Below the pieces are notes generated by a model. The model saw only the letters and a list, made by a program, of their open reading frames with translations. It was not told where the DNA came from and did no database searches. A stretch of 64,000 bases of DNA from an uncultured virus (IMG/VR IMGVR_UViG_3300015050_001305). Lineage: Duplodnaviria > Heunggongvirae > Uroviricota > Caudoviricetes. Where the stretch lies: IMG/VR virus record IMGVR_UViG_3300015050_001305. One strand, written 5' to 3'. The position numbers and the translations under genes are program-made. This document shows positions 10,540 through 61,363 of this stretch, piece by piece. Positions within the stretch are counted from its first letter, which is position 1. Each line of letters starts with the position of its first letter.

Positions 10540-10745
10540 GGAAAATATCAGGAGAACAAGAGGGCGTGATAGAGGGACAAGAGAGATGAATCAGCAGGGA
10601 ATCTAAGAAGTAGAGAAGAAGATAGGTTGGATGAGGGGAAGAGAAGAAGAAGAGAGGGTGAGTAGGTAATTTAAGAAGTAGAGAAGAAGAAGAGAGGGTG
10701 ATTCCGTACGCGCTCTCTCTCCCTGGAGGAAAACTCTCTCCATAA
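10540..10745. repeat. Purine-rich low-complexity tract with direct repeats
   Basis: TAAGAAGTAGAGAAGAAGA twice and GAGAAGAAGAAGAGAGGGTGA twice, followed by a CT-rich tract. Confidence 0.7.
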
Positions 10746-17207: not shown

Positions 17208-18473
17208 ATGAAGCTGCCTTTAACAATCGGCACGGCTCCAGATGGCTCATTGGTCCGGTTGCCGCTTGATGCGCTGCGGCGACATATGTTGGCGCTCGGC
17301 GCTTCGGGTAGTGGTAAAACGGTCCTTTGCAAGGTTATCGTCGAGGAGTGTATTCGGCAACGCTTGCCCGTGATTGCCATTGACCCGCAAGGTGATTTGG
17401 CATCGCTGGCACTGGAAGAAGATCCGGCCAAGCTAGTAGCGTTGGGCGTTGATGCTACGGTGGCCCGCGAATTTCGCCAGCGTGTTGACGTTAAGATTTG
17501 GACGCCAGGCTCCACGATGGGCATTCCCTTATCGTTTGCGCCTGCGGTGGCAATCCCTGCGGGCCTTTCGCGCGAGAATCGGATTCGGGCCTTTGGCTCG
17601 GCTGGTAGCGCGCTAGCCAGCGTCAACGGTAGCACCGATGAGGCCACGCAAGTAGCCTTTGCGATGGTGTTAGAATATGCCGACACGCATAACATTGCGT
17701 GCGACCGGCTCGATGATTTTATTCAATTGCTCGCAGACCCGCCGATGCTTTTGGCGCGTCAACTAGAGCCTGTTTTTGATGCACGTTTGCGCGCCAAGGC
17801 ACACAAGGCGTTAGTGCTGAAAACCCTTGGCCCTAATCGTTTGCTGTTTGATTTGGGGCTGCCGATCGACATCGGCGAGCTGTTTGGTTTGTATGACGCG
17901 CCAAGCAACCGGACCCGCCTATCCGTTATTTACCTGAATACGCTAGCATCGCAGGATGAGAAGGACACGTTTATGGCCCTGCTTTGCGCGGCTATGTATC
18001 AATGGATACTCGGCCTAGATGGCTCCAAGCTATGGGGCTTGCTGTACGTCGATGAGGTGGCCGCCTACCTGCCGCCCGTTAAGACTACGGCAAGTAAACA
18101 GGGCTTGATGCTACTGCTACGCCAAGCCCGCAAGTATGGCCTTTGCTGCTTGCTGGCGACGCAATCACCCGGCGACATTGACTACAAGGCGTTAGGTCAG
18201 GTAGGCACGATTGCGCTAGGTCGAATCTTTGGCGAGCGAGCTTTGAGCAAGGTGGAACCGCTCATCCGCGCGCTACCTGGTACCGACAGTGAGGGGATTA
18301 TGCGGACATTGCCGAGCATGGCCAAGGGGCATTTTGCGCTCATCAATCCCGATGAATTTGCCCATGGTCCCGCCGAAGTGAAGGTGCGCTGGTTGGCGTC
18401 GCAGCATCGCACGATGGCTGCGGATGAGGTGGCTGCGTTAGTTTCTGACACGGACCGTGCAAGATTTGGCTAG
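17208..18473 (+). CDS. HerA/FtsK-like (DUF87) P-loop ATPase, copy 1
   Basis: GASGSGKT, IDPQGD, LLYVDE, RQARKYG, ATQSPGD. Confidence 0.9.
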   Translation: MKLPLTIGTAPDGSLVRLPLDALRRHMLALGASGSGKTVLCKVIVEECIRQRLPVIAIDPQGDLASLALEEDPAKLVALGVDATVAREFRQRVDVKIWTPGSTMGIPLSFAPAVAIPAGLSRENRIRAFGSAGSALASVNGSTDEATQVAFAMVLEYADTHNIACDRLDDFIQLLADPPMLLARQLEPVFDARLRAKAHKALVLKTLGPNRLLFDLGLPIDIGELFGLYDAPSNRTRLSVIYLNTLASQDEKDTFMALLCAAMYQWILGLDGSKLWGLLYVDEVAAYLPPVKTTASKQGLMLLLRQARKYGLCCLLATQSPGDIDYKALGQVGTIALGRIFGERALSKVEPLIRALPGTDSEGIMRTLPSMAKGHFALINPDEFAHGPAEVKVRWLASQHRTMAADEVAALVSDTDRARFG

Positions 18474-21350: not shown

Positions 21351-22634
21351 ATGAAACTACCATTAACAATAGGCGTATCGCCAGACGGCGCACCAGTCAA
21401 GCTACCGCTCGATGCATTACGTCGCCACATGTTGGCGCTCGGCGCTTCCGGTAGCGGTAAGACCGTGCTGTGCAAAGTGCTTGTAGAAGAATGCATTCGA
21501 CTGCGGCTGCCTGTCATCGCAATTGACCCACAGGGCGATTTGGCATCGCTAGCGTTAACCGAAGACCCTGGGGTACTGATCAGAATGGGTGTTGACCCTG
21601 TAATTGCTCGTGAATTTCGCGCCTGTGTCGATGTGAAAATCTGGACACCAGGGTCTACTAACGGGATTCCGCTGTCGTTCGCACCCGCGATGGCTGTCTC
21701 CGACGGCGTCACAGGCGAAGATCGAATCCGCGCGTTTGGGTCTATCGGCTTGGCGCTGGCAAGCATGGCTGGCGCGGCTGATGAAACTACCCATGTTGCT
21801 TTTGCGATGATTCTCGAATACGCCGACACGAATGGTCTTGCGTGCGAGAACATTGAAGATTTTATCCAATTTCTGGAGGACCCACCGTTGCCTTTGATGC
21901 GTCAGCTGGACGTCATTTTCGATAGTAAGTCGCGTGCTAAGCTTCACAAAACATTCAAGCTTAAGACGCTCGGGTCGAATCGACTGCTGTTTAATATCGG
22001 CAATGCCATTGATATCAATGAGCTGTTTGGAATGTATGAAGGTGGTCCAGCTAGCCAGAATAAGGCAAGGTTGTCCATCATCTATCTGAACAGTCTGGCA
22101 TCTCAGGACGACAAAGATGTGTTCGTGGCATTGCTCTGTGCAGCGATGTATCAGTGGATGCTTACCTTGGACGGCTCGAAGTTGCATGGACTGCTGTATG
22201 TCGATGAAGTTGCGCCATACTTACCTCCGGTCAAGAACCCACCAGCGAAGCAGGGTTTGATGCTGCTGTTGCGCCAAGCCCGCAAGTATGGGGTCTGCTG
22301 CTTGCTGGCGACGCAATCACCCGGCGACTTGGACTACAAAGCTTTGGGCCAAGTTGGGTCGATTGCGCTGGGTCGGATATTTGGTGAACGTGCTTTGAGC
22401 AAGGTGGAACCATTGATGCGGGCAATGCCCGGCGTGGATACGGATGGCATCATGGACCGGCTGCCAACGATGCAGAAGGGCCATTTCGTGCTGATTAATC
22501 CGGATGAATACAGGGATGGGCCGGTTGAAGTCAAAGTGCGCTGGCTGGTTTCGAAACACACAACGGTGACACCGGACATGGTGAGCGACATGGTGAGCGA
22601 TGTAGACCGTACGGTGCTGGGAGGCATGATGTAG
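21351..22634 (+). CDS. HerA/FtsK-like (DUF87) P-loop ATPase, copy 2
   Basis: Same motifs; collinear paralogue of 17208-18473. Confidence 0.9.
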   Translation: MKLPLTIGVSPDGAPVKLPLDALRRHMLALGASGSGKTVLCKVLVEECIRLRLPVIAIDPQGDLASLALTEDPGVLIRMGVDPVIAREFRACVDVKIWTPGSTNGIPLSFAPAMAVSDGVTGEDRIRAFGSIGLALASMAGAADETTHVAFAMILEYADTNGLACENIEDFIQFLEDPPLPLMRQLDVIFDSKSRAKLHKTFKLKTLGSNRLLFNIGNAIDINELFGMYEGGPASQNKARLSIIYLNSLASQDDKDVFVALLCAAMYQWMLTLDGSKLHGLLYVDEVAPYLPPVKNPPAKQGLMLLLRQARKYGVCCLLATQSPGDLDYKALGQVGSIALGRIFGERALSKVEPLMRAMPGVDTDGIMDRLPTMQKGHFVLINPDEYRDGPVEVKVRWLVSKHTTVTPDMVSDMVSDVDRTVLGGMM

Positions 22635-39031: not shown

Positions 39032-39550
39032 CTACCCTAGCAGCTTCGCCATCTTGGCGGCAATTTCCTTGCGCTTGCGTGATGCCATCACTTCGCTCCA
39101 TCCTACGCGTGCGCCAGCTTCTACTTGAGTCATGCCATCGTAGATCAGGCGGATGAATTCCCTGTCATCGGTCGGTAACGTAGCTAGCGCAGCTTGGATC
39201 CGTTGCATGTTGTTATGTGAATCGCGAGCGATCCGACCGTCCGAGCCTTGCAAGGTATCCACAAGCTGATCGCAGTCGCCGTTATCATCGGCGAAACCTT
39301 CCGAGTCGTGGCCTTTGTTCGCGCAAGCTTTGCGCCAATTTTTTGCTTCATTTGCAGCGATAGTGCAAAGCCAGGTCTTTAGGGATCCCTTGGTTGCGTC
39401 AAACGTTGCGAATGCCGCAACGGCTCGCGTTGCAGCCGATTGCACGCAATCGGCAACATCGGATCCATGTGATAGGCCTATGATCTTGCCCACCGTGCCT
39501 TGCATAGCCTTAAGAATTTCGGTGCTGATTATCATTTGTTGGTTTAGCAT
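39032..39550 (-). CDS. ECF-type (sigma70 family) RNA polymerase sigma factor, copy 1
   Basis: Region 2 DVADCVQ...FDATKGSLKTWLCTIAANEAKNWRK; region 4 LPTDDREFIRL..DGMTQVEAGARVGWS. Confidence 0.85.
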   Translation of the reverse strand: MLNQQMIISTEILKAMQGTVGKIIGLSHGSDVADCVQSAATRAVAAFATFDATKGSLKTWLCTIAANEAKNWRKACANKGHDSEGFADDNGDCDQLVDTLQGSDGRIARDSHNNMQRIQAALATLPTDDREFIRLIYDGMTQVEAGARVGWSEVMASRKRKEIAAKMAKLLG

Positions 39551-39931
39551 CCGTTCACACTACAGGTAATAGGGTGCATAGTCAATATCAAAATGGCACG
39601 ATCTGCCGAATATTGCGACCTAGCAGATCCCTCTTAATCTTACAATTAGCCATTGACAATTGTAGGATGATATGGTATGATCCCGCTACCCTGGGATGGA
39701 AAACTCATAGGGATAATACCATATGATGCAACAATTGTCAATGGCTAATTGCATCAATCGACATAGCAGATCCCTGTCTGAGTAACTACAATTAGCCATT
39801 GACAATTGTCGGATGATATGCTATGATCAATAAAAAGGTTCGATTAGGAGTTTTCCATAGTGTGCGGGATGGCTGCACTGGGTTAGGAGTTTTCCATAGT
39901 GCCAGTGTGGCACGGTGGCCACGGTCAACCC

Positions 39932-40447
39932 TTACGCTGGCATGAAGGATCGCATCTTGGTAGCGATCTCTTTACGCTTGCGCGATGCTACCGATTCACT
40001 CCAACCTACTTGTGCGCCAGCTTCTACTTGGGTCATGTCGTCGTTGATCAATCGGATAAAGATCCGATCGTCGTATGATAGCGTGGCCATAGCTTGCTCT
40101 AGCCATTGCGTGTTTTCGATCCGTGCTACTTCGGCGCGACCGTCGGCACCTTGCAAGGTATCCACAAGCTGATCACACTCGCCATTGTCATCCGCGTGGC
40201 CCTCTGAATCGTGGCCACGGTTTGCGCTAGCTTTGCGCCAGTTGCGCGCAACGTTTGCGGCAATGGTACAGCACCAATTTTTGTAGTTCCCCTTGGTTTC
40301 ATCAAAGGATGCTACCTTTTCAACGGCACGCAAACATGCTTCTTGGGCACAATCAGCTACGTCAGAATCATGAGAGAACCCAATGATTTTTGCGACGGTT
40401 CCGGTCATTGACTTAAGGATCTCTGCGTTGATTTGTTTGTTTTGCAT
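39932..40447 (-). CDS. ECF-type sigma factor, copy 2
   Basis: Collinear paralogue of 39032-39550; FDETKGNYKNWCCTIAAN; start inferred from the alignment. Confidence 0.85.
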   Translation of the reverse strand: MQNKQINAEILKSMTGTVAKIIGFSHDSDVADCAQEACLRAVEKVASFDETKGNYKNWCCTIAANVARNWRKASANRGHDSEGHADDNGECDQLVDTLQGADGRAEVARIENTQWLEQAMATLSYDDRIFIRLINDDMTQVEAGAQVGWSESVASRKRKEIATKMRSFMPA

Positions 40448-40635
40448 ACCTATTGATACCATATCACAGTGTGCATTGTCAACATCTAATTGCACTAATC
40501 GACATAGCAGATCCCTACCTAAATCAATGCAATTAGAGATTGACAATTGTCGGATGATATGTTATGATCTACAAAAAGGCTAAGGATAGGAGTTTTCCTG
40601 TGCGTGGGCTAGGCTATTGGGCTAGCTCCTTCCGG

Positions 40636-42450: not shown

Positions 42451-44193
42451 ATGCATACTAAAATTGACACTGTTGATGCAAGAGATCCGCTAACGGTTAT
42501 TCGTGCTAGTTCGTGGGTATGCGCCAACGACATTTGGCGGCTTGGCGATTATCGCGTGCATTTTGACGCAGCGACGTCGGCCTGGGTGGTTAACTTTAAA
42601 GACCAGCTCGTCGCTAAAATGGCTGGCCAGGCGAGCGCGCGGGAGGCTCACCGCCGTGTAGAGCAGCTCATTGAAAGTTCGACCGTCTGGCAAAACGTCG
42701 ATCCCAATCGCTCTTGGTATCTGCGCGATTACGCCGTCTGCTGGAATCCTGGCGCGCGTAAATGGGCTATTTACCATTTTGGCACTGAGTTGATTGAAGG
42801 CACCTATGGCACGCTGGAGCATGCCAAGCTCGAAGTCGAGCGCCGCGTCGCCAATAAACCACCCGATAGTTCATTGGACGCCAAGGAGAAGGAATTGGCT
42901 GACCTGCATCGTCGTGAATGGCATTGCGATAACGCGATTTGGCACATCTTTGACTACGAAGTGCGCCCCCACGGCAACACTGGTTGGGCGATTTACCACA
43001 AGCATGCCTTGCTGGAAAATCATGCCAATTATGCAACTCCAACCTTGGCCATGCAAGCCACCGATTACCTCATTGCCGCATCGACCTGGGGCTTCGACGG
43101 TCGTCGTTGGTGCAAAGGCCATTATACATTGCGCTGGTGTGAACGGCCAAAAGCAATTCGGTCAGGTTGGTATATCTACTATAGAGAAAAAGCCTTGGAC
43201 GATAGCATGCCTTTCAAGAACCCTGAAATTGCTAAGCTCGAAGTTGACCAAATAATTCGAATGAAAGATCTTGAACCTGCTGTAGTTAAAACACCTGCAG
43301 CTGAATCAGTTGCAACCAAGCCTTTTGCGCGTAGCTGGCGCTACGAAAATTCGGTCTGGAAAATCAGCGACTACATCGTGCGCTGGCATCATGCCTGGGC
43401 TGCGAGAGGCAGGGGCTGGTACATTTGGTATCAGGACGCCATGCTGCCGCTGCAGGCCTATGAAAATGCTGACGATGCGCGGGCGGCCGTCGAGGTCCTG
43501 ATGACGCAAGCGTATGACGAACTGCTGTCATCATTATTTGCTAAAAAAGCAACGAATCCCGACTGGCACTATGATGAGGGCGATTGGCTGCTGGGCGATT
43601 ACCGCGTCGTTCGTAGCGGCGGGGAAGATTCCAAGGTCTGGATGATTTTCTACAAGGCCTTGCACATCGCCTCACTTGAAAGTGCCGAACTTGCCAAATA
43701 CGAAGTTGAGCGTCGCATGGCTAGTTTGATGAACCAACCACCTGCAGCAACACCTTGTGATACCCACAAGACTGAACCTATGAATTCGAAATTTAACAAT
43801 ATCTGGGAACTGATTGCCGCCTCCATCCGCACCCGTCGCCCTGTTGAAATTCTGGAGGTTGGTGGCACTTGGGAGATCTGCAGTGAATTTAGTCCGGCCA
43901 ACCTTCGGCCCATGCTTAATACTGATTGGCTTTCACGCGTTTTTATCAGCAACAAGCTGCGGCTCAAGCCCGTCATGGTCCAAAAGACCTGCTGGCATGT
44001 GATGTGCTATCTAGACGGATCTCTGTCCGACGTGTCAGGCCCGCTGCCATCCCATGACGCTGCGGCCAACTGGATCATCGCCGCTATTACCATGCCGTAT
44101 CGGCACGGGCATCACATCGTCAAAATTGACGCGGCCGTGCCTGCTGACGAATCAGGGCAAGTTGTTGACCCCTCAGTTGTAGATAACGTATGA
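42451..44193 (+). CDS. Trp-rich internal-repeat protein
   Basis: About 6-7 repeats of W..W.(L/I)xDY.V...W.I...AK.EVERR. Confidence 0.85.
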   Translation: MHTKIDTVDARDPLTVIRASSWVCANDIWRLGDYRVHFDAATSAWVVNFKDQLVAKMAGQASAREAHRRVEQLIESSTVWQNVDPNRSWYLRDYAVCWNPGARKWAIYHFGTELIEGTYGTLEHAKLEVERRVANKPPDSSLDAKEKELADLHRREWHCDNAIWHIFDYEVRPHGNTGWAIYHKHALLENHANYATPTLAMQATDYLIAASTWGFDGRRWCKGHYTLRWCERPKAIRSGWYIYYREKALDDSMPFKNPEIAKLEVDQIIRMKDLEPAVVKTPAAESVATKPFARSWRYENSVWKISDYIVRWHHAWAARGRGWYIWYQDAMLPLQAYENADDARAAVEVLMTQAYDELLSSLFAKKATNPDWHYDEGDWLLGDYRVVRSGGEDSKVWMIFYKALHIASLESAELAKYEVERRMASLMNQPPAATPCDTHKTEPMNSKFNNIWELIAASIRTRRPVEILEVGGTWEICSEFSPANLRPMLNTDWLSRVFISNKLRLKPVMVQKTCWHVMCYLDGSLSDVSGPLPSHDAAANWIIAAITMPYRHGHHIVKIDAAVPADESGQVVDPSVVDNV

Positions 44194-45524
44194 GCACACT
44201 AGTTAATCAAACACCCATGCCGGCCATTCGTGCTAGCTCGTGGCGACATGAAAACAGCATTTGGTATCTCGGCGATTACCGCGTGTATTTTTCCACCTTT
44301 TCAAGAGTCTGGTTAGTTCACGCGAAAGATCAGCTTGTCGCTGAAAGTGTTACCTATACGAGTTCCGTAGAGGCTCGCAAGGCTACGGAGCGCCTCATCG
44401 AAAGTTCGCCTGCCTGGCAAGCCATTAATCGCACTTGGTATCGGCGTAATTACGCGGTCAGTTGGAATCCTGATGATTGCGGCTGGACGATTTACCATTT
44501 CCAGGCTGCGCTCGCCAATAATACCTACCAAGATCCTGAAAATGCCAAACACGAAGTCGATTGCCGCCTCGCGCTACAAGACAATGCCGCAACGGCCCAA
44601 GCGCCAACCTTGCCGCTGGCCGCTGGCTTGACGTGGCAATGCTTGCACTATGTTTGGTATATCGGCGATTACAAGGTATTTTTTTCCGCCTTTTTGGAGG
44701 CTTGGGTACTTAAATACAAGCAAGTGCTGCTGACTGAAACACGGGAGCCTAATGGTTCGCCTGCACCCCTAATGTTTCAAGCCTTGCAAAAAGCCAAGGA
44801 CGAAGTCGAGCGACGCCTCAGCCCCCAGGCGGCCCCGCCAATTGCTGAAGTCCCGCCAGCTGTAATAGCCTGGCAATACATCGACGACATATGGCAGCTC
44901 GGCGATTACAAGATATATTTTTCCGTCTATTCGGGGTTATGGGAAATTAACTACAAGAATGAGCTGTTGATTGAATCTGCGACGACGGCTGGCGCTGTGA
45001 CGGCTGGATATCCGGTTGTGCAGCAGGCGTACCCAGATCGAGACAGCGCCAAACGTGCAGTCGAGGCACGCCTCAAAAACGAGCAACGCCTCAGCCCCCA
45101 GACTGCCCCGCCAATTGCTGTTGAAAATAAGGTCAAGTCCCCCACCATGAACCCTACCTTCCATAATGTCTGGGACATCATTGCTCAGTCCGTTCAATGG
45201 AACCGCCGCATCGAAATTCAGCAGTCCGACGGCACCTGGCTGCCGTCGCCCGATTTCGACCTAACGTACCGTGACACGGTTGACATCAAAGCCCTCAAAA
45301 CCATTTTCTGTATCAACAAATTGCGACTCCAACCCCGCTTTTTCAAGAAAGCCTGCTGGATTGTCATGCGCTATCGAGGCATGTCAATCTTCAATGTGTC
45401 CGAAAGTCTGGACTCTGTCGAGGTAGCTGAGACGTGGATTAACACCCATGCTGCGCCCTCCGAGCGTCAAGACTATTACATTGCCAAAATTGTCGTGGAG
45501 GTTACTAATGACGACGTCTTGTAA
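44190..45524 (+). CDS. Trp-rich internal-repeat protein, paralogue
   Basis: About 4 repeats plus a shared C-terminal domain (FHNVWDIIA vs FNNIWELIA). Confidence 0.85.
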   Translation: MSTLVNQTPMPAIRASSWRHENSIWYLGDYRVYFSTFSRVWLVHAKDQLVAESVTYTSSVEARKATERLIESSPAWQAINRTWYRRNYAVSWNPDDCGWTIYHFQAALANNTYQDPENAKHEVDCRLALQDNAATAQAPTLPLAAGLTWQCLHYVWYIGDYKVFFSAFLEAWVLKYKQVLLTETREPNGSPAPLMFQALQKAKDEVERRLSPQAAPPIAEVPPAVIAWQYIDDIWQLGDYKIYFSVYSGLWEINYKNELLIESATTAGAVTAGYPVVQQAYPDRDSAKRAVEARLKNEQRLSPQTAPPIAVENKVKSPTMNPTFHNVWDIIAQSVQWNRRIEIQQSDGTWLPSPDFDLTYRDTVDIKALKTIFCINKLRLQPRFFKKACWIVMRYRGMSIFNVSESLDSVEVAETWINTHAAPSERQDYYIAKIVVEVTNDDVL

Positions 45525-46328: not shown

Positions 46329-46724
46329 ATGGCAGCTGTTAATTTTGAATTTGATTTATCTGAAATGTCCGGCAATGAGTTGCTGGCAGGTGAACTCGCC
46401 AAGTATGTGCATCTAAAGCTCTTGCACCTGCAGCATAACCCAACCGGCCATGGCAGCACCTGCGAAGCCGTCATGCTGCAACTGGGCTGCATTGCGGAAG
46501 TTGCCCTCATTGGGTACCCGTTGCCTGAGGGCAATGAGCTGCCGGTGCTGCAGCTTTACGTGACAGATCCGCTGGATGAACCGACGGCTGCCTGGGTAGC
46601 TGCTTCGGTTGAGGCTACGCGTGATTTCATTTTGACGCAGATGCTGGCCTCGCAGGTTGAGCACGAAGCGACCTGCCCTTGTTGTCAGGACAAGGCTTTG
46701 GCGGGCGCGAAGTCTCAGAATTAA
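46329..46724 (+). CDS. Hypothetical protein
   Basis: ORF track; CPCC. Confidence 0.65.
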   Translation: MAAVNFEFDLSEMSGNELLAGELAKYVHLKLLHLQHNPTGHGSTCEAVMLQLGCIAEVALIGYPLPEGNELPVLQLYVTDPLDEPTAAWVAASVEATRDFILTQMLASQVEHEATCPCCQDKALAGAKSQN

Positions 46725-46727
46725 GTT

Positions 46728-47078
46728 ATGATTTACCTGGATGAAGTTTGCTGGACGGAGGCTATGCTGCGAGGCCTATTAGAAGACCTGCAGCAGGCCC
46801 AGCTCACCACATCGAAGCTGCAGATTCAGGTAACCCAGCAAGCTGCGGATATCGTCCGTGGCAAGATTGATATCAATCAACTCTTGCAAAAAAATCAGCA
46901 AGCTTCGAAAGAGAATGAGGCACTGCGGTCGCTGGTCACGATAGATCGTCAGCGTGCCCAGGATGCCGCCAGCCATGAACGTCATTGGCGAGCCGAAGTA
47001 GTGCAATTAAAATATAAGATTGAAGCGCTGCAGGCAACTGGCCTGCTACTGCCAATTGATCGAAAACGTGAAAGTTAA
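46728..47078 (+). CDS. Coiled-coil protein
   Basis: Heptad pattern. Confidence 0.65.
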   Translation: MIYLDEVCWTEAMLRGLLEDLQQAQLTTSKLQIQVTQQAADIVRGKIDINQLLQKNQQASKENEALRSLVTIDRQRAQDAASHERHWRAEVVQLKYKIEALQATGLLLPIDRKRES

Positions 47079-47132
47079 CGCAACGTGAGTTGTAGTTAAG
47101 CTATTCACCCCTACCTCAAGGAACCAAACCAC

Positions 47133-47483
47133 ATGGCTATCTGGCCTCCCCTGCCACCCGCCTTCAGTCACAATTTTGGCAATGCCCAAAAAATCAATGA
47201 CATCCGCAGCGTCCTGATCGCTTTTGAGCGAGCGGCTAACTTCGAAACGTGGCGTCAACCGATGCAGTTGACGAATCAGCCTAGATGGCAGCAGTTCGAC
47301 TCAAACGCCGAAGATGTGCTGACCGCCGTCCTGCTATGCCTTGGCTGGCGACAGCCGCTACGCTGGTGGTACACCCCACCACTAGGCGGCGTCACAACCT
47401 ATTATTATACCAATTTCAAATTCACAGATGTGCCGCAACCAGCAGACGATACCCAGGAAATATCATGCGAAAATACCATTTAG
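47133..47483 (+). CDS. Hypothetical protein
   Basis: Promoter motif at 47070 plus AAGG Shine-Dalgarno. Confidence 0.65.
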   Translation: MAIWPPLPPAFSHNFGNAQKINDIRSVLIAFERAANFETWRQPMQLTNQPRWQQFDSNAEDVLTAVLLCLGWRQPLRWWYTPPLGGVTTYYYTNFKFTDVPQPADDTQEISCENTI

Positions 47484-47665
47484 CCTTAGCCGGCCTAGCA
47501 GTTATCATTATTTTACCATTTTTCATCGGTGGTTGGATTTTGGCATCTTGGATACAACAGCGAGCTTGCTTTGCCGATGGCTATCCGCGCACCGTGAACG
47601 TTGGCATCATCTGGCCCGATACACGATGCGTGAAGCTGTTGAACGGCAGCGAAGTCATTCGATAA
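47465..47665 (+). CDS. Small membrane protein immediately upstream of the CRISPR array
   Basis: MRKYHLALAGLAVIIILPFFIGGWILASW... Confidence 0.65.
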   Translation: MRKYHLALAGLAVIIILPFFIGGWILASWIQQRACFADGYPRTVNVGIIWPDTRCVKLLNGSEVIR

Positions 47666-47669
47666 TAGT

Positions 47670-47875
47670 TGCCACTGCCGCATAGGCAGCTTAGTAGAAA
47701 ACGTGTCGGGTTAAGCATCTAGGTGCGACGTTGCCTGCCGGATAGGCAGATTAGTAAGTTGACGTCGGGCTCATTCTGCGTGGCCGCCCTTCACTGCCGC
47801 ATAGGCAGCTTAGCAAACAAAATGACAGCCTATACGCACATCATTGGGTGCTCTGCCGCAGAGGCAGTCGGATGG
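47670..47875 (+). CRISPR. Type I-F-like CRISPR mini-array: 4 degenerate 28-nt repeats, 3 spacers (32, 31, 31 nt), no cas genes
   Basis: Repeats at 47670, 47730, 47789, 47848 all keep CTGCC-N5-GGCAG; repeat 3 CTTCACTGCCGCATAGGCAGCTTAGCAA resembles the I-F consensus GTTCACTGCCGTATAGGCAGCTAAGAAA. Confidence 0.88.
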
Positions 47876-47931
47876 GCTAGACAATGGCCTCATAATAAAT
47901 AAATCTGCCAATAGAGATAAGAAGAAAACAA

Positions 47932-48384
47932 ATGCAACATCCTTTAGTTTTAGAGTGGATTGATAATGCCGACGGCACGCATACCGCAGGCGATTACTAT
48001 CTTGAAAGAATGGTCAATGAGCTATATGGCATTAGCTGGATTGCCTGGAGTCTTAAAGAAAAAAATGTGATCGGCGAAGCCACGCATTTAGAGCAGATGA
48101 AGTCCATCTGCTGGAATCATGCACAGCTGGTCGTCAACGCCAAGCCGATGAGGCCGCTCAGCTTTGTCATGGTAGATGAGGCGACGCAACTGATGGTAGC
48201 CTATCGTGCCTTTTTGGCTTTTACGTATAAGACGTTGACGGATGGGAAGTTCCTTGCCCGCATGAGCATTACTTCGGAATTATCTGTACTGAAATCTGTC
48301 ACATTGGGAACAGCTGAGGCTTGCGAGGCCTGGGCGAATGAACAGCTAACGGCCATGACTAACGATCTGCTGGGCCACGGTTAA
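47932..48384 (+). CDS. Hypothetical protein
   Basis: ORF track. Confidence 0.7.
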   Translation: MQHPLVLEWIDNADGTHTAGDYYLERMVNELYGISWIAWSLKEKNVIGEATHLEQMKSICWNHAQLVVNAKPMRPLSFVMVDEATQLMVAYRAFLAFTYKTLTDGKFLARMSITSELSVLKSVTLGTAEACEAWANEQLTAMTNDLLGHG

Positions 48385-48420
48385 GCTGAAAGTTTGCGGG
48401 GCTTGAATTGTAGTAACACT

Positions 48421-48900
48421 ATGAGATCTGACTTTATTCGAAGCATCAATGTTTGCAATCCGCATCAGCGCGAAACAGCGGCCAATTTCTGCAATGCCAT
48501 GGCAGCTATCCTGGAATCCGACATGCCCATCATCGATCCCGAGCTGTACAGACATCCTGAAGACCACTTCGTGTCTCAGCTCATCCATACGTTGGATTAC
48601 CGCGTAAAGGAAATTTATCCCAGTGAAGACCGGGCGACGCAATGGCTGATCGCCGAAGTCACCATTCGAGATACGCTGTCTGAATGGCAAATGGATCAAG
48701 GCACAAATGTCATCTATTTCCCCGCAGCCGAACCGAACTGCCGTGGCTATCAAGCCATTACGCTTTGCACTCAATTTTTTCATACTCAACAATGGTGTAC
48801 GAATATTGATATTTACGATGCCATCTCGGGCCTCGTCGGCGAGCGTGCGAATCGCGCCATCTGCGTCCCTATGGCAGATCTGGCAGTGGAGTTAAAATGA
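48421..48900 (+). CDS. Protein with divergent AEAEA-family N-terminal domain
   Basis: RETAANFCNAMAA...WLIAEV; promoter motif. Confidence 0.7.
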   Translation: MRSDFIRSINVCNPHQRETAANFCNAMAAILESDMPIIDPELYRHPEDHFVSQLIHTLDYRVKEIYPSEDRATQWLIAEVTIRDTLSEWQMDQGTNVIYFPAAEPNCRGYQAITLCTQFFHTQQWCTNIDIYDAISGLVGERANRAICVPMADLAVELK

Positions 48901-53194: not shown

Positions 53195-53324
53195 TGACTA
53201 AAAATGCAGTTGGAGACATCATGACCAAGCACAAAGATCCATATCGCCACGAGCTTTTGGCGTTCGCTGCCGCGTACATCGGCGCTGTCTTATTGGGAAT
53301 AGCAATTCTAGTGCGTGTGGGACT

Positions 53325-56649: not shown

Positions 56650-57066
56650 ATGAAATTAACTGAGATTCTAAAAGAATACGACCCGCCTAACAATCTTAGG
56701 ATAAAACGTCAGGTTTGGGGCGAATACTACGTCAACGTTCATCAACACCTGCTGCTTGATAGCAAAGGTAGCAGTGCATGGCTAAGCGCTGTAGATGTCA
56801 ACGCAGATGATTGGATTATGGTCAAGGAACCCTTATTGTCCTCGCTGGCGAATCTTTTGCTGAAGCATGAAACAACTCGCCTACCTATCTTTAAGCGGGC
56901 AGGCTGGAATTCACCCCATGAGAATGCAGCTGCTATTGACGAGGAGGGAGACCTGCTCTTGATGAAAGACGGCGTGGTCACAGATGACCCATTTAGAATG
57001 ACGGTGATGGACATCATGGCAGATGACTGGTTCTATGCTGGGAAGCATAGAACCAGAACCGGATGA
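56650..57066 (+). CDS. Tandem DUF2829 (Tad2-like) domain protein
   Basis: KRQVW...DVNADDW and KRAGWN...DIMADDW. Confidence 0.55.
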   Translation: MKLTEILKEYDPPNNLRIKRQVWGEYYVNVHQHLLLDSKGSSAWLSAVDVNADDWIMVKEPLLSSLANLLLKHETTRLPIFKRAGWNSPHENAAAIDEEGDLLLMKDGVVTDDPFRMTVMDIMADDWFYAGKHRTRTG

Positions 57067-59918: not shown

Positions 59919-59962
59919 CGCAATCTATGAAAGATCACACCTCCTGGCTTGTAGGTACAACT

Positions 59963-61363
59963 ATGAAAATTATCAATGTCAGACTCGGCCTCGCTACCAA
60001 TAGCTCATCCACTCACTCAATCATCTTTTTGCCCAAAGATAAAAATATGCGGTCTACCGACAGCGAGGGCAGTCGTTATGGCTGGGATTATTTCCACCTA
60101 GCAGACAAAGCAAGCAAGCTAGACTACCTTGCCACTTCACTAATGACGCAACTTCAGACAGAACTAGGCGAAGATATCGCAAGATCTGTCGTTAATGATT
60201 GGTGCAAGAGCGACCTGGACTTTGATGATACCTATTACGTAGACCATCAGTCGACCTTGACCTTCCCGCGAAACTGGGACGGCAAAGGCCTGGACCGCAA
60301 ATTCTTTGATGCATTCAAAGAATTTATTGTTCACGATGATATTGTTATCGCTGGCGGCAATGACAATGACGACGAACGACCTTATGCAATTGAAGCTGGC
60401 GGCAGAGATCTTGACTCATTACCTGTAGAGTCATACAGCGCACCATGGGTAGCACGCCAGGACCATGACTATTGGACTATTTTTAATCGTGATTCAGGTG
60501 CAAAAATTCGGCTTGCCCTCGCATCGCCATTCAATGCGATGCCTCGGCGCAGCACCGCGCCTGAGCTGATTGACATTAAGATTACGGACTACTGCCCATT
60601 TAATTGCGAATTCTGCTACCAGGATTCAACCTTAAAAGGTGCGCATGCAGACTATGGATGGTTGCAATCACTTGCCTTTCACCTAGGAGATCAAAAAGTA
60701 TTTGAAGTCGCACTCGGCGGCGGCGAACCAACCCTGCATCCTAAATTCGTGGAAATCCTGGCCATGTTTCGTTACAGCGGCGTCGTGCCAAACTTTACAA
60801 CTAAAAATCTTGGTTGGTTAAAAGATGAAGTGACCCGCGACAAGATTTTGAAATATACAGGCGCATTTGCCTACTCAGCTCAAACCGCCGAAGATGTCAG
60901 AGCGTTTGTAGCGGCATTGCCCAAGAATTTGAAATTTGAAAAGCGGGTAACGATCCAACATGTTGTAGGTGTCGTCGATGCCGATGAATTCAAGGCCGTA
61001 CTTGAAGCCTGTGCCGACGCGCATTTCCCAATCACCTTACTGGGTTACAAAATGGTAGGACGAGGGCCAGCCTTTAGTCCCAAGACATCGTCTGCCTGGC
61101 TGAATATCGTGAAGGAAGTCTGCGAGCGGAGAAGTCTCCGCGTAGGTATTGATACAGCCTTGGCCGATGATCACTGGGATGACCTCAAGAATGCTGGGAT
61201 TTCTGAATGGTTGCTGACAAGGATCGAGGGTCAATTCTCCTGTTACATTGATGCCGTCGCAAAGACAATCAACACGTCTTCTTACACTACGCGGGCGGGC
61301 TCACCGATGGGGGACCTTCAGTTCGACATTCCAGCGCTGTACGCCGATTTGCCTCATCAGTAA
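59963..61363 (+). CDS. Radical SAM protein with N-terminal TNSSS domain
   Basis: CPFNCEFC, GGGEPTLHP, NFTT; N-terminal VRLGLATNSSSTH. Confidence 0.9.
   Translation: MKIINVRLGLATNSSSTHSIIFLPKDKNMRSTDSEGSRYGWDYFHLADKASKLDYLATSLMTQLQTELGEDIARSVVNDWCKSDLDFDDTYYVDHQSTLTFPRNWDGKGLDRKFFDAFKEFIVHDDIVIAGGNDNDDERPYAIEAGGRDLDSLPVESYSAPWVARQDHDYWTIFNRDSGAKIRLALASPFNAMPRRSTAPELIDIKITDYCPFNCEFCYQDSTLKGAHADYGWLQSLAFHLGDQKVFEVALGGGEPTLHPKFVEILAMFRYSGVVPNFTTKNLGWLKDEVTRDKILKYTGAFAYSAQTAEDVRAFVAALPKNLKFEKRVTIQHVVGVVDADEFKAVLEACADAHFPITLLGYKMVGRGPAFSPKTSSAWLNIVKEVCERRSLRVGIDTALADDHWDDLKNAGISEWLLTRIEGQFSCYIDAVAKTINTSSYTTRAGSPMGDLQFDIPALYADLPHQ

What the first reader, a model, noticed from the sequence alone, without database searches (positions are those of the whole stretch)
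47670..47875. Cas-less, leaderless type I-F-like CRISPR mini-array embedded in a phage operon
Seen: four 28-nt repeats (TGCCACTGCCGCATAGGCAGCTTAGTAG, GTTGCCTGCCGGATAGGCAGATTAGTAA, CTTCACTGCCGCATAGGCAGCTTAGCAA, GTGCTCTGCCGCAGAGGCAGTCGGATGG) separated by unrelated 32/31/31-nt spacers. The repeats differ in their flanks but all keep the CTGCC/GGCAG 5-bp stem and a 5-nt loop. The array starts 5 nt after the stop of a small membrane ORF, downstream of the phage-type promoter at 47070, with no AT-rich leader and no cas gene in 64 kb. Known: Cas6f/Csy4 recognises this stem-loop, and I-F spacers are about 32 nt. Inference: selection keeps Cas6f processing rather than Cas1-mediated acquisition. The crRNAs may borrow a host Csy complex to target rival phages or host genes, or act as RNA anti-CRISPR decoys (Racr-like) with altered 5' handles (CTTAGTAG, ATTAGTAA, CTTAGCAA).
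Basis: partly seen in the sequence, partly recalled or inferred. Interest (0 to 1): 0.85.

Follow-up and report, generated by a model that had tools for sequence, protein, structure and literature searches.

The report
Orphan type I-F phage CRISPR mini-array
A genuine three-spacer CRISPR array of the I-F type sits inside a gene cluster of an unknown, probably large, phage with no cas genes in view; this is a known kind of phage trick, and its targets here remain unidentified.

Summary
Four 28-nt repeats (47670-47875, periods 60/59/59) carry the CTGCC-N5-GGCAG hairpin. That motif occurs nowhere else in the window, and 0 of 100 shuffles reach 4 copies. R3 passes Rfam CRISPR-DR4's gathering score on the + strand, the strand of the flanking genes. 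The array lies mid-operon, between two copies of a 13-member phage promoter-like motif, with no leader.

No Cas family was found in 83 ORFs (Pfam, PADLOC). However, "Cas-less" is shown for 64 kb only. The contig is 72.9 kb, it has no structural genes, and the genome is surely larger.

Against the canonical repeat, the stems have 0 of 40 changes and the other used positions 15 of 64 (P=4e-4). The unused handle of the last repeat is 8 of 8 changed. The 59-nt period is rare in host arrays (9 of 1,668). So the hairpins are selected and Cas1-type acquisition is not at work.

No protospacer, host or related copy was found. Spacers could not be scanned against IMG/VR or metagenomes.

Best reading (0.45): a trans-acting crRNA array that uses Cas6f/Csy supplied from elsewhere. 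Rivals: an RNA anti-CRISPR (sponge or Cracr-like), a decaying captured array, or a satellite of unseen phage cas genes.

This is a new member of a known kind, of moderate interest.

The parts
47670..47697 (+). Repeat R1 (TGCCA-CTGCC-GCATA-GGCAG-CTTAGTAG). Its 5' flank is the most diverged. It supplies the 5' handle of RNA 1.
   Evidence: (26.1 bits DR4)
47698..47729 (+). Spacer S1, 32 nt
   Evidence: No match found.
47730..47757 (+). Repeat R2 (handle ATTAGTAA, loop GGATA)
   Evidence: (21.4 bits)
47758..47788 (+). Spacer S2, 31 nt
   Evidence: the 59-nt period is rare
47789..47816 (+). Repeat R3, the best preserved (handle CTTAGCAA)
   Evidence: (38.6 bits, above gathering score 35)
47817..47847 (+). 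Spacer S3, 31 nt
   Evidence: A 20-nt match to Acinetobacter phages was rejected.
47848..47875 (+). Terminal repeat R4. The hairpin is intact and the 3' handle part is 8 of 8 diverged.
   Evidence: Host arrays show the same terminal decay.
47069..47096 (+). Phage promoter-like motif TGAAAG-N16-TGTAGT, the putative start of the transcription unit that holds the array
   Evidence: 13 copies against 0.1 in shuffles
48387..48414 (+). Next copy of the same promoter-like motif. It marks the start of the following unit.
47639..47666 (+). Sigma-70-like TTGAAC-16-GATAAT ending 4 nt before R1. A possible host-RNAP promoter, not above chance.
   Evidence: 3 found, 2.2 expected
47133..47483 (+). Upstream ORF, 116 aa, no known family
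47465..47665 (+). Small hydrophobic ORF, 66 aa, ending 4 nt before the array
47932..48384 (+). Downstream ORFan, 150 aa, in the same putative unit. No relatives in 5.8 billion proteins.

Best explanation
This is a functional, phage-borne type I-F CRISPR mini-array that works in trans.

Proposed mechanism:
1. It is transcribed on the + strand as part of the operon that starts at the phage promoter-like element at 47069 (inferred).
2. Cas6f cuts after each of the four conserved hairpins (inferred from the family). The Cas6f comes from the host, or from phage genes outside the window.
3. This yields three crRNA-like RNAs of 60, 59 and 59 nt. Each has an 8-nt 5' handle (CUUAGUAG, AUUAGUAA or CUUAGCAA), a 32- or 31-nt guide, and a 20-nt 3' hairpin.
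4. These RNAs load into Csy/Cascade complexes and direct them to targets not yet identified. Rival mobile elements are the precedent.
5. [quoted passage not shown]

The array no longer grows by Cas1-Cas2/3 acquisition. It evolves by point changes under selection for the parts that end up in the mature RNAs.
For: Shown:
- The family match and strand agree with the flanking genes.
- The hairpin motif is unique to the array. Each repeat folds into the canonical hairpin, and the hairpin persists in the three predicted mature RNAs.
- Counts of changes against the repeat that dominates host arrays with this core: stems 0 of 40, loops 2 of 20, 5' flanks 8 of 20, used handles (R1-R3) 5 of 24, unused handle (R4) 8 of 8.
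- Fisher tests: stem against the rest, P=3.9e-4. Used against unused handle, P=1.2e-4.
- R1's 5' flank would enter no mature RNA, and it is the most changed (3 of 5).
- The array lies between two copies of a 13-member promoter-like motif. No terminator-like site lies in 46600-48600.

From the literature:
- The I-F crRNA has an 8-nt handle, a 32-nt spacer and a 20-nt hairpin, with a CC PAM (PMC7305327, passages).
- Viral mini-arrays exploit host Cas proteins against related viruses (PMC11656645, passages).
- Phage arrays without cas genes may use host Cas proteins (PMC7162821, passages).

IMG/VR holds analogues. Of 38 loci with the same 20-nt core, 4 are two-repeat, 60-nt-period mini-arrays with a divergent second repeat.
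Against: No protospacer was found in any set searched:
- the window itself (best 21 of 31)
- 50,697 phage records
- 72,556 plasmids
- 126 host-array loci
- 47 loci of relatives (409 kb)
- 46 further loci
- 5 whole genomes
- 401 genomes of one order at E<=1e-7, with only 2 candidates scored per genome

Other points against:
- IMG/VR and the metagenome collection were not scanned with the spacers.
- All three used handles carry a non-A at handle position 6. Host arrays with this core read CTTAGAAA in 128 of 144 locus-variants.
- Two of three spacers are 31 nt, which is atypical.
- R4's degenerate handle could be inherited from a source array, because terminal repeats of host arrays decay the same way. 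That contrast is therefore weaker than its P value.
- There is no host, no expression data, and no related copy to test conservation.
Confidence: 0.45

Rival explanations
1. It is an RNA anti-CRISPR in array format. The processed RNAs act mainly by soaking up Cas6f and Cas7f (Racr-like). Alternatively they act as Cracr-like guides with partial complementarity that turn host Csy complexes into repressors of cas or creT promoters.
For: - The repeats are divergent, like the pseudo-repeats of viral Cracr arrays, and viral I-F multi-spacer arrays are described (10.1101/2024.10.29.618823, sections 7, 9, 14).
- The stem-loop is the part required for RacrIF1 activity, and handle changes are tolerated there (PMC10651486, passages).
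- All three handles are non-canonical at position 6.
- No fully matching target was found anywhere searched.
- The phage carries a Tad2-like anti-defence domain elsewhere.
- 8 of 38 IMG/VR loci with the same core are short-period (47-48 nt) arrays of the Cracr type, so such elements use this very repeat.
Against: - Racrs are defined as solitary repeats, and SRUFinder discards arrays (PMC10651486, methods passage).
- I-F Cracr spacers are mostly 17-21 nt and host CreA/CreR spacers 23-27 nt (preprint section 11). Here they are 31-32 nt.
- The handles of R1-R3 are largely kept (19 of 24 positions), unlike R4's.
- None of the 3 flanking ORFs tested matches any PDB chain at a meaningful E-value (best E 0.3). 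The PDB should hold AcrIF24, per the abstract of PMC9001735.
- No seed match to a cas-locus region was found in the 5 genomes searched whole.
Confidence: 0.28
2. It is a non-functional remnant. A piece of a host I-F array (its distal end with the terminal repeat) was picked up by the phage and is decaying.
For: - About 23% of non-stem positions are changed.
- Two 1-nt-short periods look like later deletions.
- R4 resembles the degenerate terminal repeat of host arrays.
- No targets, no leader and no cas genes were found.
Against: - 0 of 40 stem positions are changed, against 15 of 64 elsewhere (P=3.9e-4).
- All four hairpins are intact.
- The array keeps sense orientation and an intergenic position inside an operon, in a phage with tightly packed genes.
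Confidence: 0.12
3. It is an ordinary satellite array of a phage-encoded I-F (or I-F-like) cas module that lies outside the 64-kb window.
For: - The contig is 72,887 bp, and no structural genes are in the window. Most of the genome is therefore unseen.
- Phages with their own I-F systems exist (PMC11656645 passages; PMC10161043 abstract, seen in a search listing).
- A consistent handle change could fit a private effector (inference).
Against: - No Cas family was found in 83 ORFs.
- Arrays next to active cas modules usually have near-identical repeats. In the host arrays sampled, most loci show a single repeat variant.
- The closest relatives fetched carry no array.
Confidence: 0.12

Closest known systems
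Virus-borne CRISPR mini-arrays (as summarised in PMC11656645; portoglobovirus SPV1/SPV2 example)
   Same: An orphan array in a viral genome, with no cas genes nearby, presumed to use Cas proteins supplied in trans.
   Different: Described mini-arrays have one or two spacers and repeats identical to the host's, and their spacers match related viruses. This one has three spacers and four mutually divergent repeats (62-90% identity), and no target was found.
Viral Cracr arrays (bioRxiv 10.1101/2024.10.29.618823)
   Same: A multiplexed crRNA-like array with degenerate repeats in a phage, including I-F types. It competes for Cas proteins.
   Different: I-F Cracr spacers are mostly 17-21 nt and match cas or creT promoters, often next to acrIF24. 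Here the spacers are 31-32 nt, no promoter match was found, and no AcrIF24-like neighbour was detected.
RacrIF1 / solitary repeat units (PMC10651486)
   Same: An I-F repeat mimic in a phage, behind a promoter. The Cas6f stem-loop is the conserved part.
   Different: Racrs are solitary by definition. This is four repeats at CRISPR spacing with largely retained handles.
Compact arrays of huge phages lacking cas genes (PMC7162821)
   Same: A short phage array with host-like repeats and possible use of host Cas proteins. The phage is probably large, with its own sigma factors.
   Different: Those arrays were tied to hosts and targets from the same samples. No such link is available here.
Vibrio phage ICP1 type I-F CRISPR-Cas (as described in PMC11656645)
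   Same: A type I-F array in a phage.
   Different: ICP1 carries the full cas operon and an acquiring array. No cas gene is seen here.

Membership tests
Type I-F CRISPR array (Rfam CRISPR-DR4, RF01317) | Repeat matches the family model at or above the gathering score | tested here: met
   R3 scores 38.6 bits against 35. R1 (26.1) and R2 (21.4) are below the score, and R4 has no match.
Type I-F CRISPR array (Rfam CRISPR-DR4, RF01317) | 28-nt repeats with a 5-bp stem and 5-nt loop hairpin, at a period of about 60 nt, with unrelated spacers | tested here: met
   Periods are 60/59/59. All four repeats form the hairpin. The 59-nt period occurs in only 9 of 1,668 host-array intervals.
Type I-F CRISPR array (Rfam CRISPR-DR4, RF01317) | Near-identical repeats throughout the array | tested here: not met
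   Identity to R1 is 69, 90 and 62%. Of 64 non-stem positions outside R4's handle, 15 differ from the canonical repeat.
Type I-F CRISPR array (Rfam CRISPR-DR4, RF01317) | Leader sequence and adjacent cas operon | tested here: not met
   An ORF ends 4 nt upstream. No Cas family was found in 83 ORFs by Pfam or PADLOC. The rest of the genome is unseen.
Viral mini-array (PMC11656645) | One or two spacers, with repeats identical to the host's | tested here: not met
   There are three spacers. The four repeats differ from each other, so they cannot all equal one host repeat. The host is unknown.
Viral mini-array (PMC11656645) | Spacers match related viruses | tested here: inconclusive
   No match in the phage database or in 47 loci of relatives. 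IMG/VR and metagenomes were not scanned with the spacers.
Racr / solitary repeat unit (PMC10651486) | A solitary repeat, with no other full or partial repeat within 100 bp | tested here: not met
   Four repeats lie 59-60 nt apart.
Racr / solitary repeat unit (PMC10651486) | Intact Cas6f stem-loop | tested here: met
   Stems show 0 of 40 changes. The hairpins fold.
Racr / solitary repeat unit (PMC10651486) | Inhibits the cognate CRISPR-Cas system | not testable with these tools
   This needs an interference assay.
I-F Cracr array (10.1101/2024.10.29.618823) | Short spacer portion (mostly 17-21 nt) | tested here: not met
   Spacers are 32, 31 and 31 nt.
I-F Cracr array (10.1101/2024.10.29.618823) | Spacer complementary (at least 9 PAM-proximal bp) to a cas or creT promoter | tested here: inconclusive
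   Nothing was found in 5 whole genomes or in the fetched loci. The host is unknown and promoter regions were not sampled systematically.
I-F Cracr array (10.1101/2024.10.29.618823) | Frequent linkage to acrIF24 | tested here: not met
   The three flanking ORFs have no PDB sequence match better than E 0.3. This is a sequence-level test only.

The most novel reading that the evidence does not exclude
This is a new format of viral CRISPR RNA. It would be a recombination-proof, three-guide array with full-length spacers. Its hairpins are held constant while the handles are systematically altered at position 6.

Two roles are possible. The alteration could 'privatise' the guides for a divergent Csy complex, encoded by the phage outside the window or by a particular host lineage. 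Alternatively, it could make a multi-unit Cas6f/Cas7f sponge, that is, an array-type Racr, which is a class that SRU searches discard by design.

The ORFan just downstream in the same transcript would then be a candidate protein partner (an Acr).
Probability: 0.2. Interest if true: 0.6.

Novelty: new member of a known kind. Interest (0 to 1): 0.4.

Why it matters
Phage-borne orphan arrays show how viruses turn host immunity into a weapon or a decoy. This one combines features of two described classes: full-length guides, as in interference mini-arrays, and divergent pseudo-repeats, as in Cracr arrays. It also gives a clean within-array signature of which parts of an I-F repeat are needed when acquisition is absent. 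If its altered handles change which Cas subunits assemble, it would be a natural experiment on crRNA 'privatisation' or sequestration. As it stands, it is one more example, in a poorly sampled aquatic phage lineage, without a known host or target.

Tried and rejected
- **Relatives.** The flanking proteins gave no related locus in IMG/VR. The downstream ORF has no relative among 5.8 billion proteins. Helicase-based searches found relatives at no more than 68% identity, and a third protein gave one distant locus. None of these carries an I-F-like array. Conservation in relatives could therefore not be tested.
- **Sequencing runs.** No RNA holder is listed. The one DNA run laid (X1, labelled aquatic metagenome) holds near-identical short contigs: 5 of 13 laid pieces are at least 99% alike. 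None covers the array.
- **Host.** None of these arrays has a spacer matching the window. The host is unresolved.
- **Partial spacer matches rejected as chance.**
  - S2 matches 22 of 25 nt in genome G001. The match lies inside a 568-aa ORF and is preceded by AA, not CC (E 0.09).
  - S3 positions 11-30 match Acinetobacter phages. The PAM-proximal 10 nt match at only 2 of 10, there is no CC, and E is 3.
- **Apparent extra repeat.** A 17-nt match of host repeats at 53260-53276 is half a repeat inside a coding region, with no second arm.
- **Folding.** The whole-array fold is no more stable than shuffles (z = -1.0).
- **Order-wide genome search.** It returned only repeat-to-repeat alignments, and only 2 candidates per genome were scored. 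It is a weak negative.
- **Earlier findings.** These were not open. No whole genome is held for the window.
- **Spacers in the large collections.** The spacers were not scanned against IMG/VR, the metagenome collection or genome contigs. That tool takes typed letters only.

Full report
**What is there**

It holds four 28-nt repeats (R1-R4) separated by spacers of 32, 31 and 31 nt.
- The repeat finder reports one family with spacing 60/59/59 and identity 100/69/90/62% to R1. It finds no similarity among the spacers.
- The hairpin motif CTGCCGNANAGGCAG occurs four times in 64 kb, only here. Shuffles expect 0.07, and 0 of 100 shuffles reach four.
- A window-wide scan for short-period direct repeats finds no second array.
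- Rfam's CRISPR-DR4 model, the type I-F repeat family, matches R3 above its gathering score (38.6 against 35 bits). R1 and R2 match below it (26.1 and 21.4 bits). All matches are on the + strand. R4 is not matched.
- Each repeat folds into the 5-bp stem and 5-nt loop. The hairpin also persists in the three predicted processed RNAs.

**Surroundings**

The window is phage-like but very poorly related to anything known.
- There is no DNA match in 50,697 phage records.
- An SNF2 helicase has its best tblastn matches, at about 32-36% identity, in large phages.
- It encodes two sigma-factor-like proteins, two HerA-like ATPases, a radical-SAM protein, a Tad2-like domain and one tRNA.
- I scanned 83 ORFs: 79 of the 111 ORFs of at least 100 aa, plus 4 shorter ones. 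The 32 left out overlap longer ORFs in other frames.
- None of the 83 matches a Cas family in Pfam or PADLOC. The only Cas-named PADLOC row is a 15-bit 'Cas4d' hit with no significant stretch.
- No capsid, tail or portal gene appears. Terminase is named only in weak PHROG rows (E 2.4e-10 and 3.5e-12) on the two HerA-like ATPases.
- The protein database records the contig as 72,887 bp.

The genome must therefore be much larger than what is visible. 'Cas-less' holds for 64 kb only.

**Transcription context**

- The family has 13 copies in the window, against a mean of 0.1 in 200 shuffles.
- Of the 13 copies, 9 stand 6-9 nt before an ATG.
- Copies at 47069 and 48387 bracket a unit made of a 116-aa ORF, a 66-aa hydrophobic ORF, the array and a 150-aa ORFan.
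- No terminator-like site lies in 46600-48600.
- A sigma-70-like TTGAAC-16-GATAAT ends 4 nt before R1. Such sites are not enriched here: 3 found against 2.2 expected.
- There is no room for a leader, because the small ORF stops 4 nt before R1.

Transcription of the array with its operon is inferred, not shown.

**Signature of selection inside the array**

I scanned genome contigs with the 20-nt core shared by R1 and R3. Their dominant repeat is GTTCA-CTGCC-GCATA-GGCAG-CTTAGAAA, and the handle CTTAGAAA appears in 128 of 144 locus-variants.

Changes in the phage repeats against that repeat:

| Part | Changes |
|---|---|
| Stems | 0 of 40 |
| Loops | 2 of 20 |
| 5' flanks | 8 of 20 |
| Handles of R1-R3 | 5 of 24 |
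| Handle of R4 | 8 of 8 |

- Stem against the other used positions gives P=3.9e-4.
- The parts that would be absent from any mature RNA are the most diverged. These are R1's 5' flank (3 of 5) and R4's handle (8 of 8).
- One caveat applies. Terminal repeats of host arrays show the same 3' decay, so R4's state may be inherited.
- In 107 host arrays, the period is 60 nt in 1,524, 61 nt in 125 and 59 nt in only 9 of 1,668 intervals. Two 59-nt periods out of three has P of about 9e-5.
- All three used handles carry T, T or C at handle position 6, where host arrays have A.

The Cas6f hairpin is maintained, and the array is not being maintained by the acquisition machinery.

**Targets and host**

No protospacer was found in any of these sets:
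- the window itself (best 21 of 31)
- the phage database
- PLSDB plasmids
- the 126 host-array loci
- 47 loci of relatives (409 kb)
- 46 further loci
- five whole genomes
- 401 genomes of one order at E<=1e-7, a weak test because only two candidates per genome were scored

Two partial matches were examined and rejected as chance.

The repeat core is too widespread to name a host. No host spacer in the fetched arrays matches the window. One run labelled aquatic metagenome holds near-identical fragments of the phage, but none across the array.

**Comparison with the literature**

- A review describes viral mini-arrays as having one or two spacers, repeats identical to the host's, and spacers against related viruses (PMC11656645, passages).
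- Racrs are solitary repeat units. The search tool that defined them discards arrays, and the stem-loop is the essential part (PMC10651486, passages).
- A preprint describes viral 'Cracr' arrays with degenerate repeats, including one three-spacer I-F array. I-F Cracr spacers are mostly 17-21 nt, they target cas or creT promoters, and they are often next to acrIF24 (10.1101/2024.10.29.618823, sections 7, 9, 10, 11, 14).
- Huge phages carry compact arrays without cas genes that may use host Cas proteins (PMC7162821, passages).

I also scanned IMG/VR with the same 20-nt core. The 38 loci returned fall into four groups:
- 6 loci (4 contigs) with long uniform arrays
- 20 with a single repeat
- 8 with 47-48-nt periods, the Cracr type
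- 4 with two divergent repeats at a 60-nt period

None of the 38 has three full-length spacers between divergent repeats. The element is therefore a larger member of a known group, not a new kind.

**Verdict**

The array is real, it is of type I-F, and its hairpins are under selection.
- Most likely reading (0.45): it makes three crRNA-like RNAs through Cas6f supplied in trans, and these load into Csy complexes.
- Whether they guide interference, repress, or merely sequester Cas proteins is open (anti-CRISPR RNA reading, 0.28).
- It could be a decaying capture (0.12).
- It could be a satellite of unseen phage cas genes (0.12).

Interest is moderate. It would rise if the altered handles prove to change complex assembly, or if targets are found.

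Noticed in passing
window, 13 sites, e.g. 18458, 26564, 26962, 33189, 47069, 48387, 50104, 61370 (+) and 33829 (-): A promoter-like motif TG[AC]AA[AG]-N15-18-TGTAGT occurs 13 times, against 0.1 in shuffles. Of the 13, 9 stand 6-9 nt before an ATG, which suggests leaderless or near-leaderless mRNAs. The motif may be read by the phage's own sigma factors.
   Followed up: partly
window 39032-39550 (-) and 39932-40546 (-); 39844-39862 and 39883-39901: Two sigma-70-family proteins (Pfam Sigma70_r2/r4). A perfect 19-nt direct repeat, 39 nt apart, lies between them and looks like an operator.
   Followed up: no
window 17208-18473 (+) and 21351-22634 (+): Two paralogous HerA/FtsK-like ATPases (Pfam DUF87/HerA_C; PADLOC mad8/HerA) lie 3 kb apart.
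   Followed up: no
window 42451-44193 (+) and 44190-45524 (+): Two adjacent large proteins (580 and 444 aa) are built of repeated W..(I/V)W.(L/I)GDY(R/K)V-type modules. They have no Pfam, PHROG or PADLOC family.
   Followed up: no
window 56650-57066 (+): An ORF with a Tad2-like (anti-Thoeris) domain just above Pfam's cut-off (26.3 against 25 bits), directly upstream of the SNF2 helicase.
   Followed up: no
window 59927-61363 (+): A 478-aa radical-SAM protein with weak similarity to prokaryotic viperins (PADLOC pVip, 34.9 bits).
   Followed up: no
window 1-64000: No recognisable capsid, tail or portal gene, and terminase only in weak PHROG rows on the two HerA-like ATPases, in 64 kb of mostly ORFan genes. 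The phage is probably much larger than the 72.9-kb contig.
   Followed up: partly
window 10593-10702: A purine-rich imperfect tandem repeat (units of about 40 nt, GAAGAAGAAGAGAGGGTGA-like) in an intergenic stretch.
   Followed up: no
L175 9608-9680 (genome G001, contig C19; record titled Methylomonas sp. MAG): A two-repeat mini-array with a 26-nt spacer lies between ORFs whose sizes and order resemble cas1, cas2/3 and csy1-4. It looks like a host CreA/CreR-type regulatory RNA. The ORFs were not checked with profiles.
   Followed up: partly
L188, L189, L194, L195, L200, L207, L208, L215 (IMG/VR): Viral contigs carry two or three divergent I-F repeats at 47-48-nt periods (spacers of about 20 nt) with the same repeat core. 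They fit the published Cracr-array architecture.
   Followed up: partly
PLSDB hits: 235 of 310 plasmid records with a match are Escherichia, and 250 of the 310 are typed conjugative. In the 4 such rows listed (1 labelled E. coli, 3 'uncultured bacterium') the match is a single short repeat-like place (about 30 nt, 94.7% identity). This may be a solitary repeat unit.
   Followed up: no
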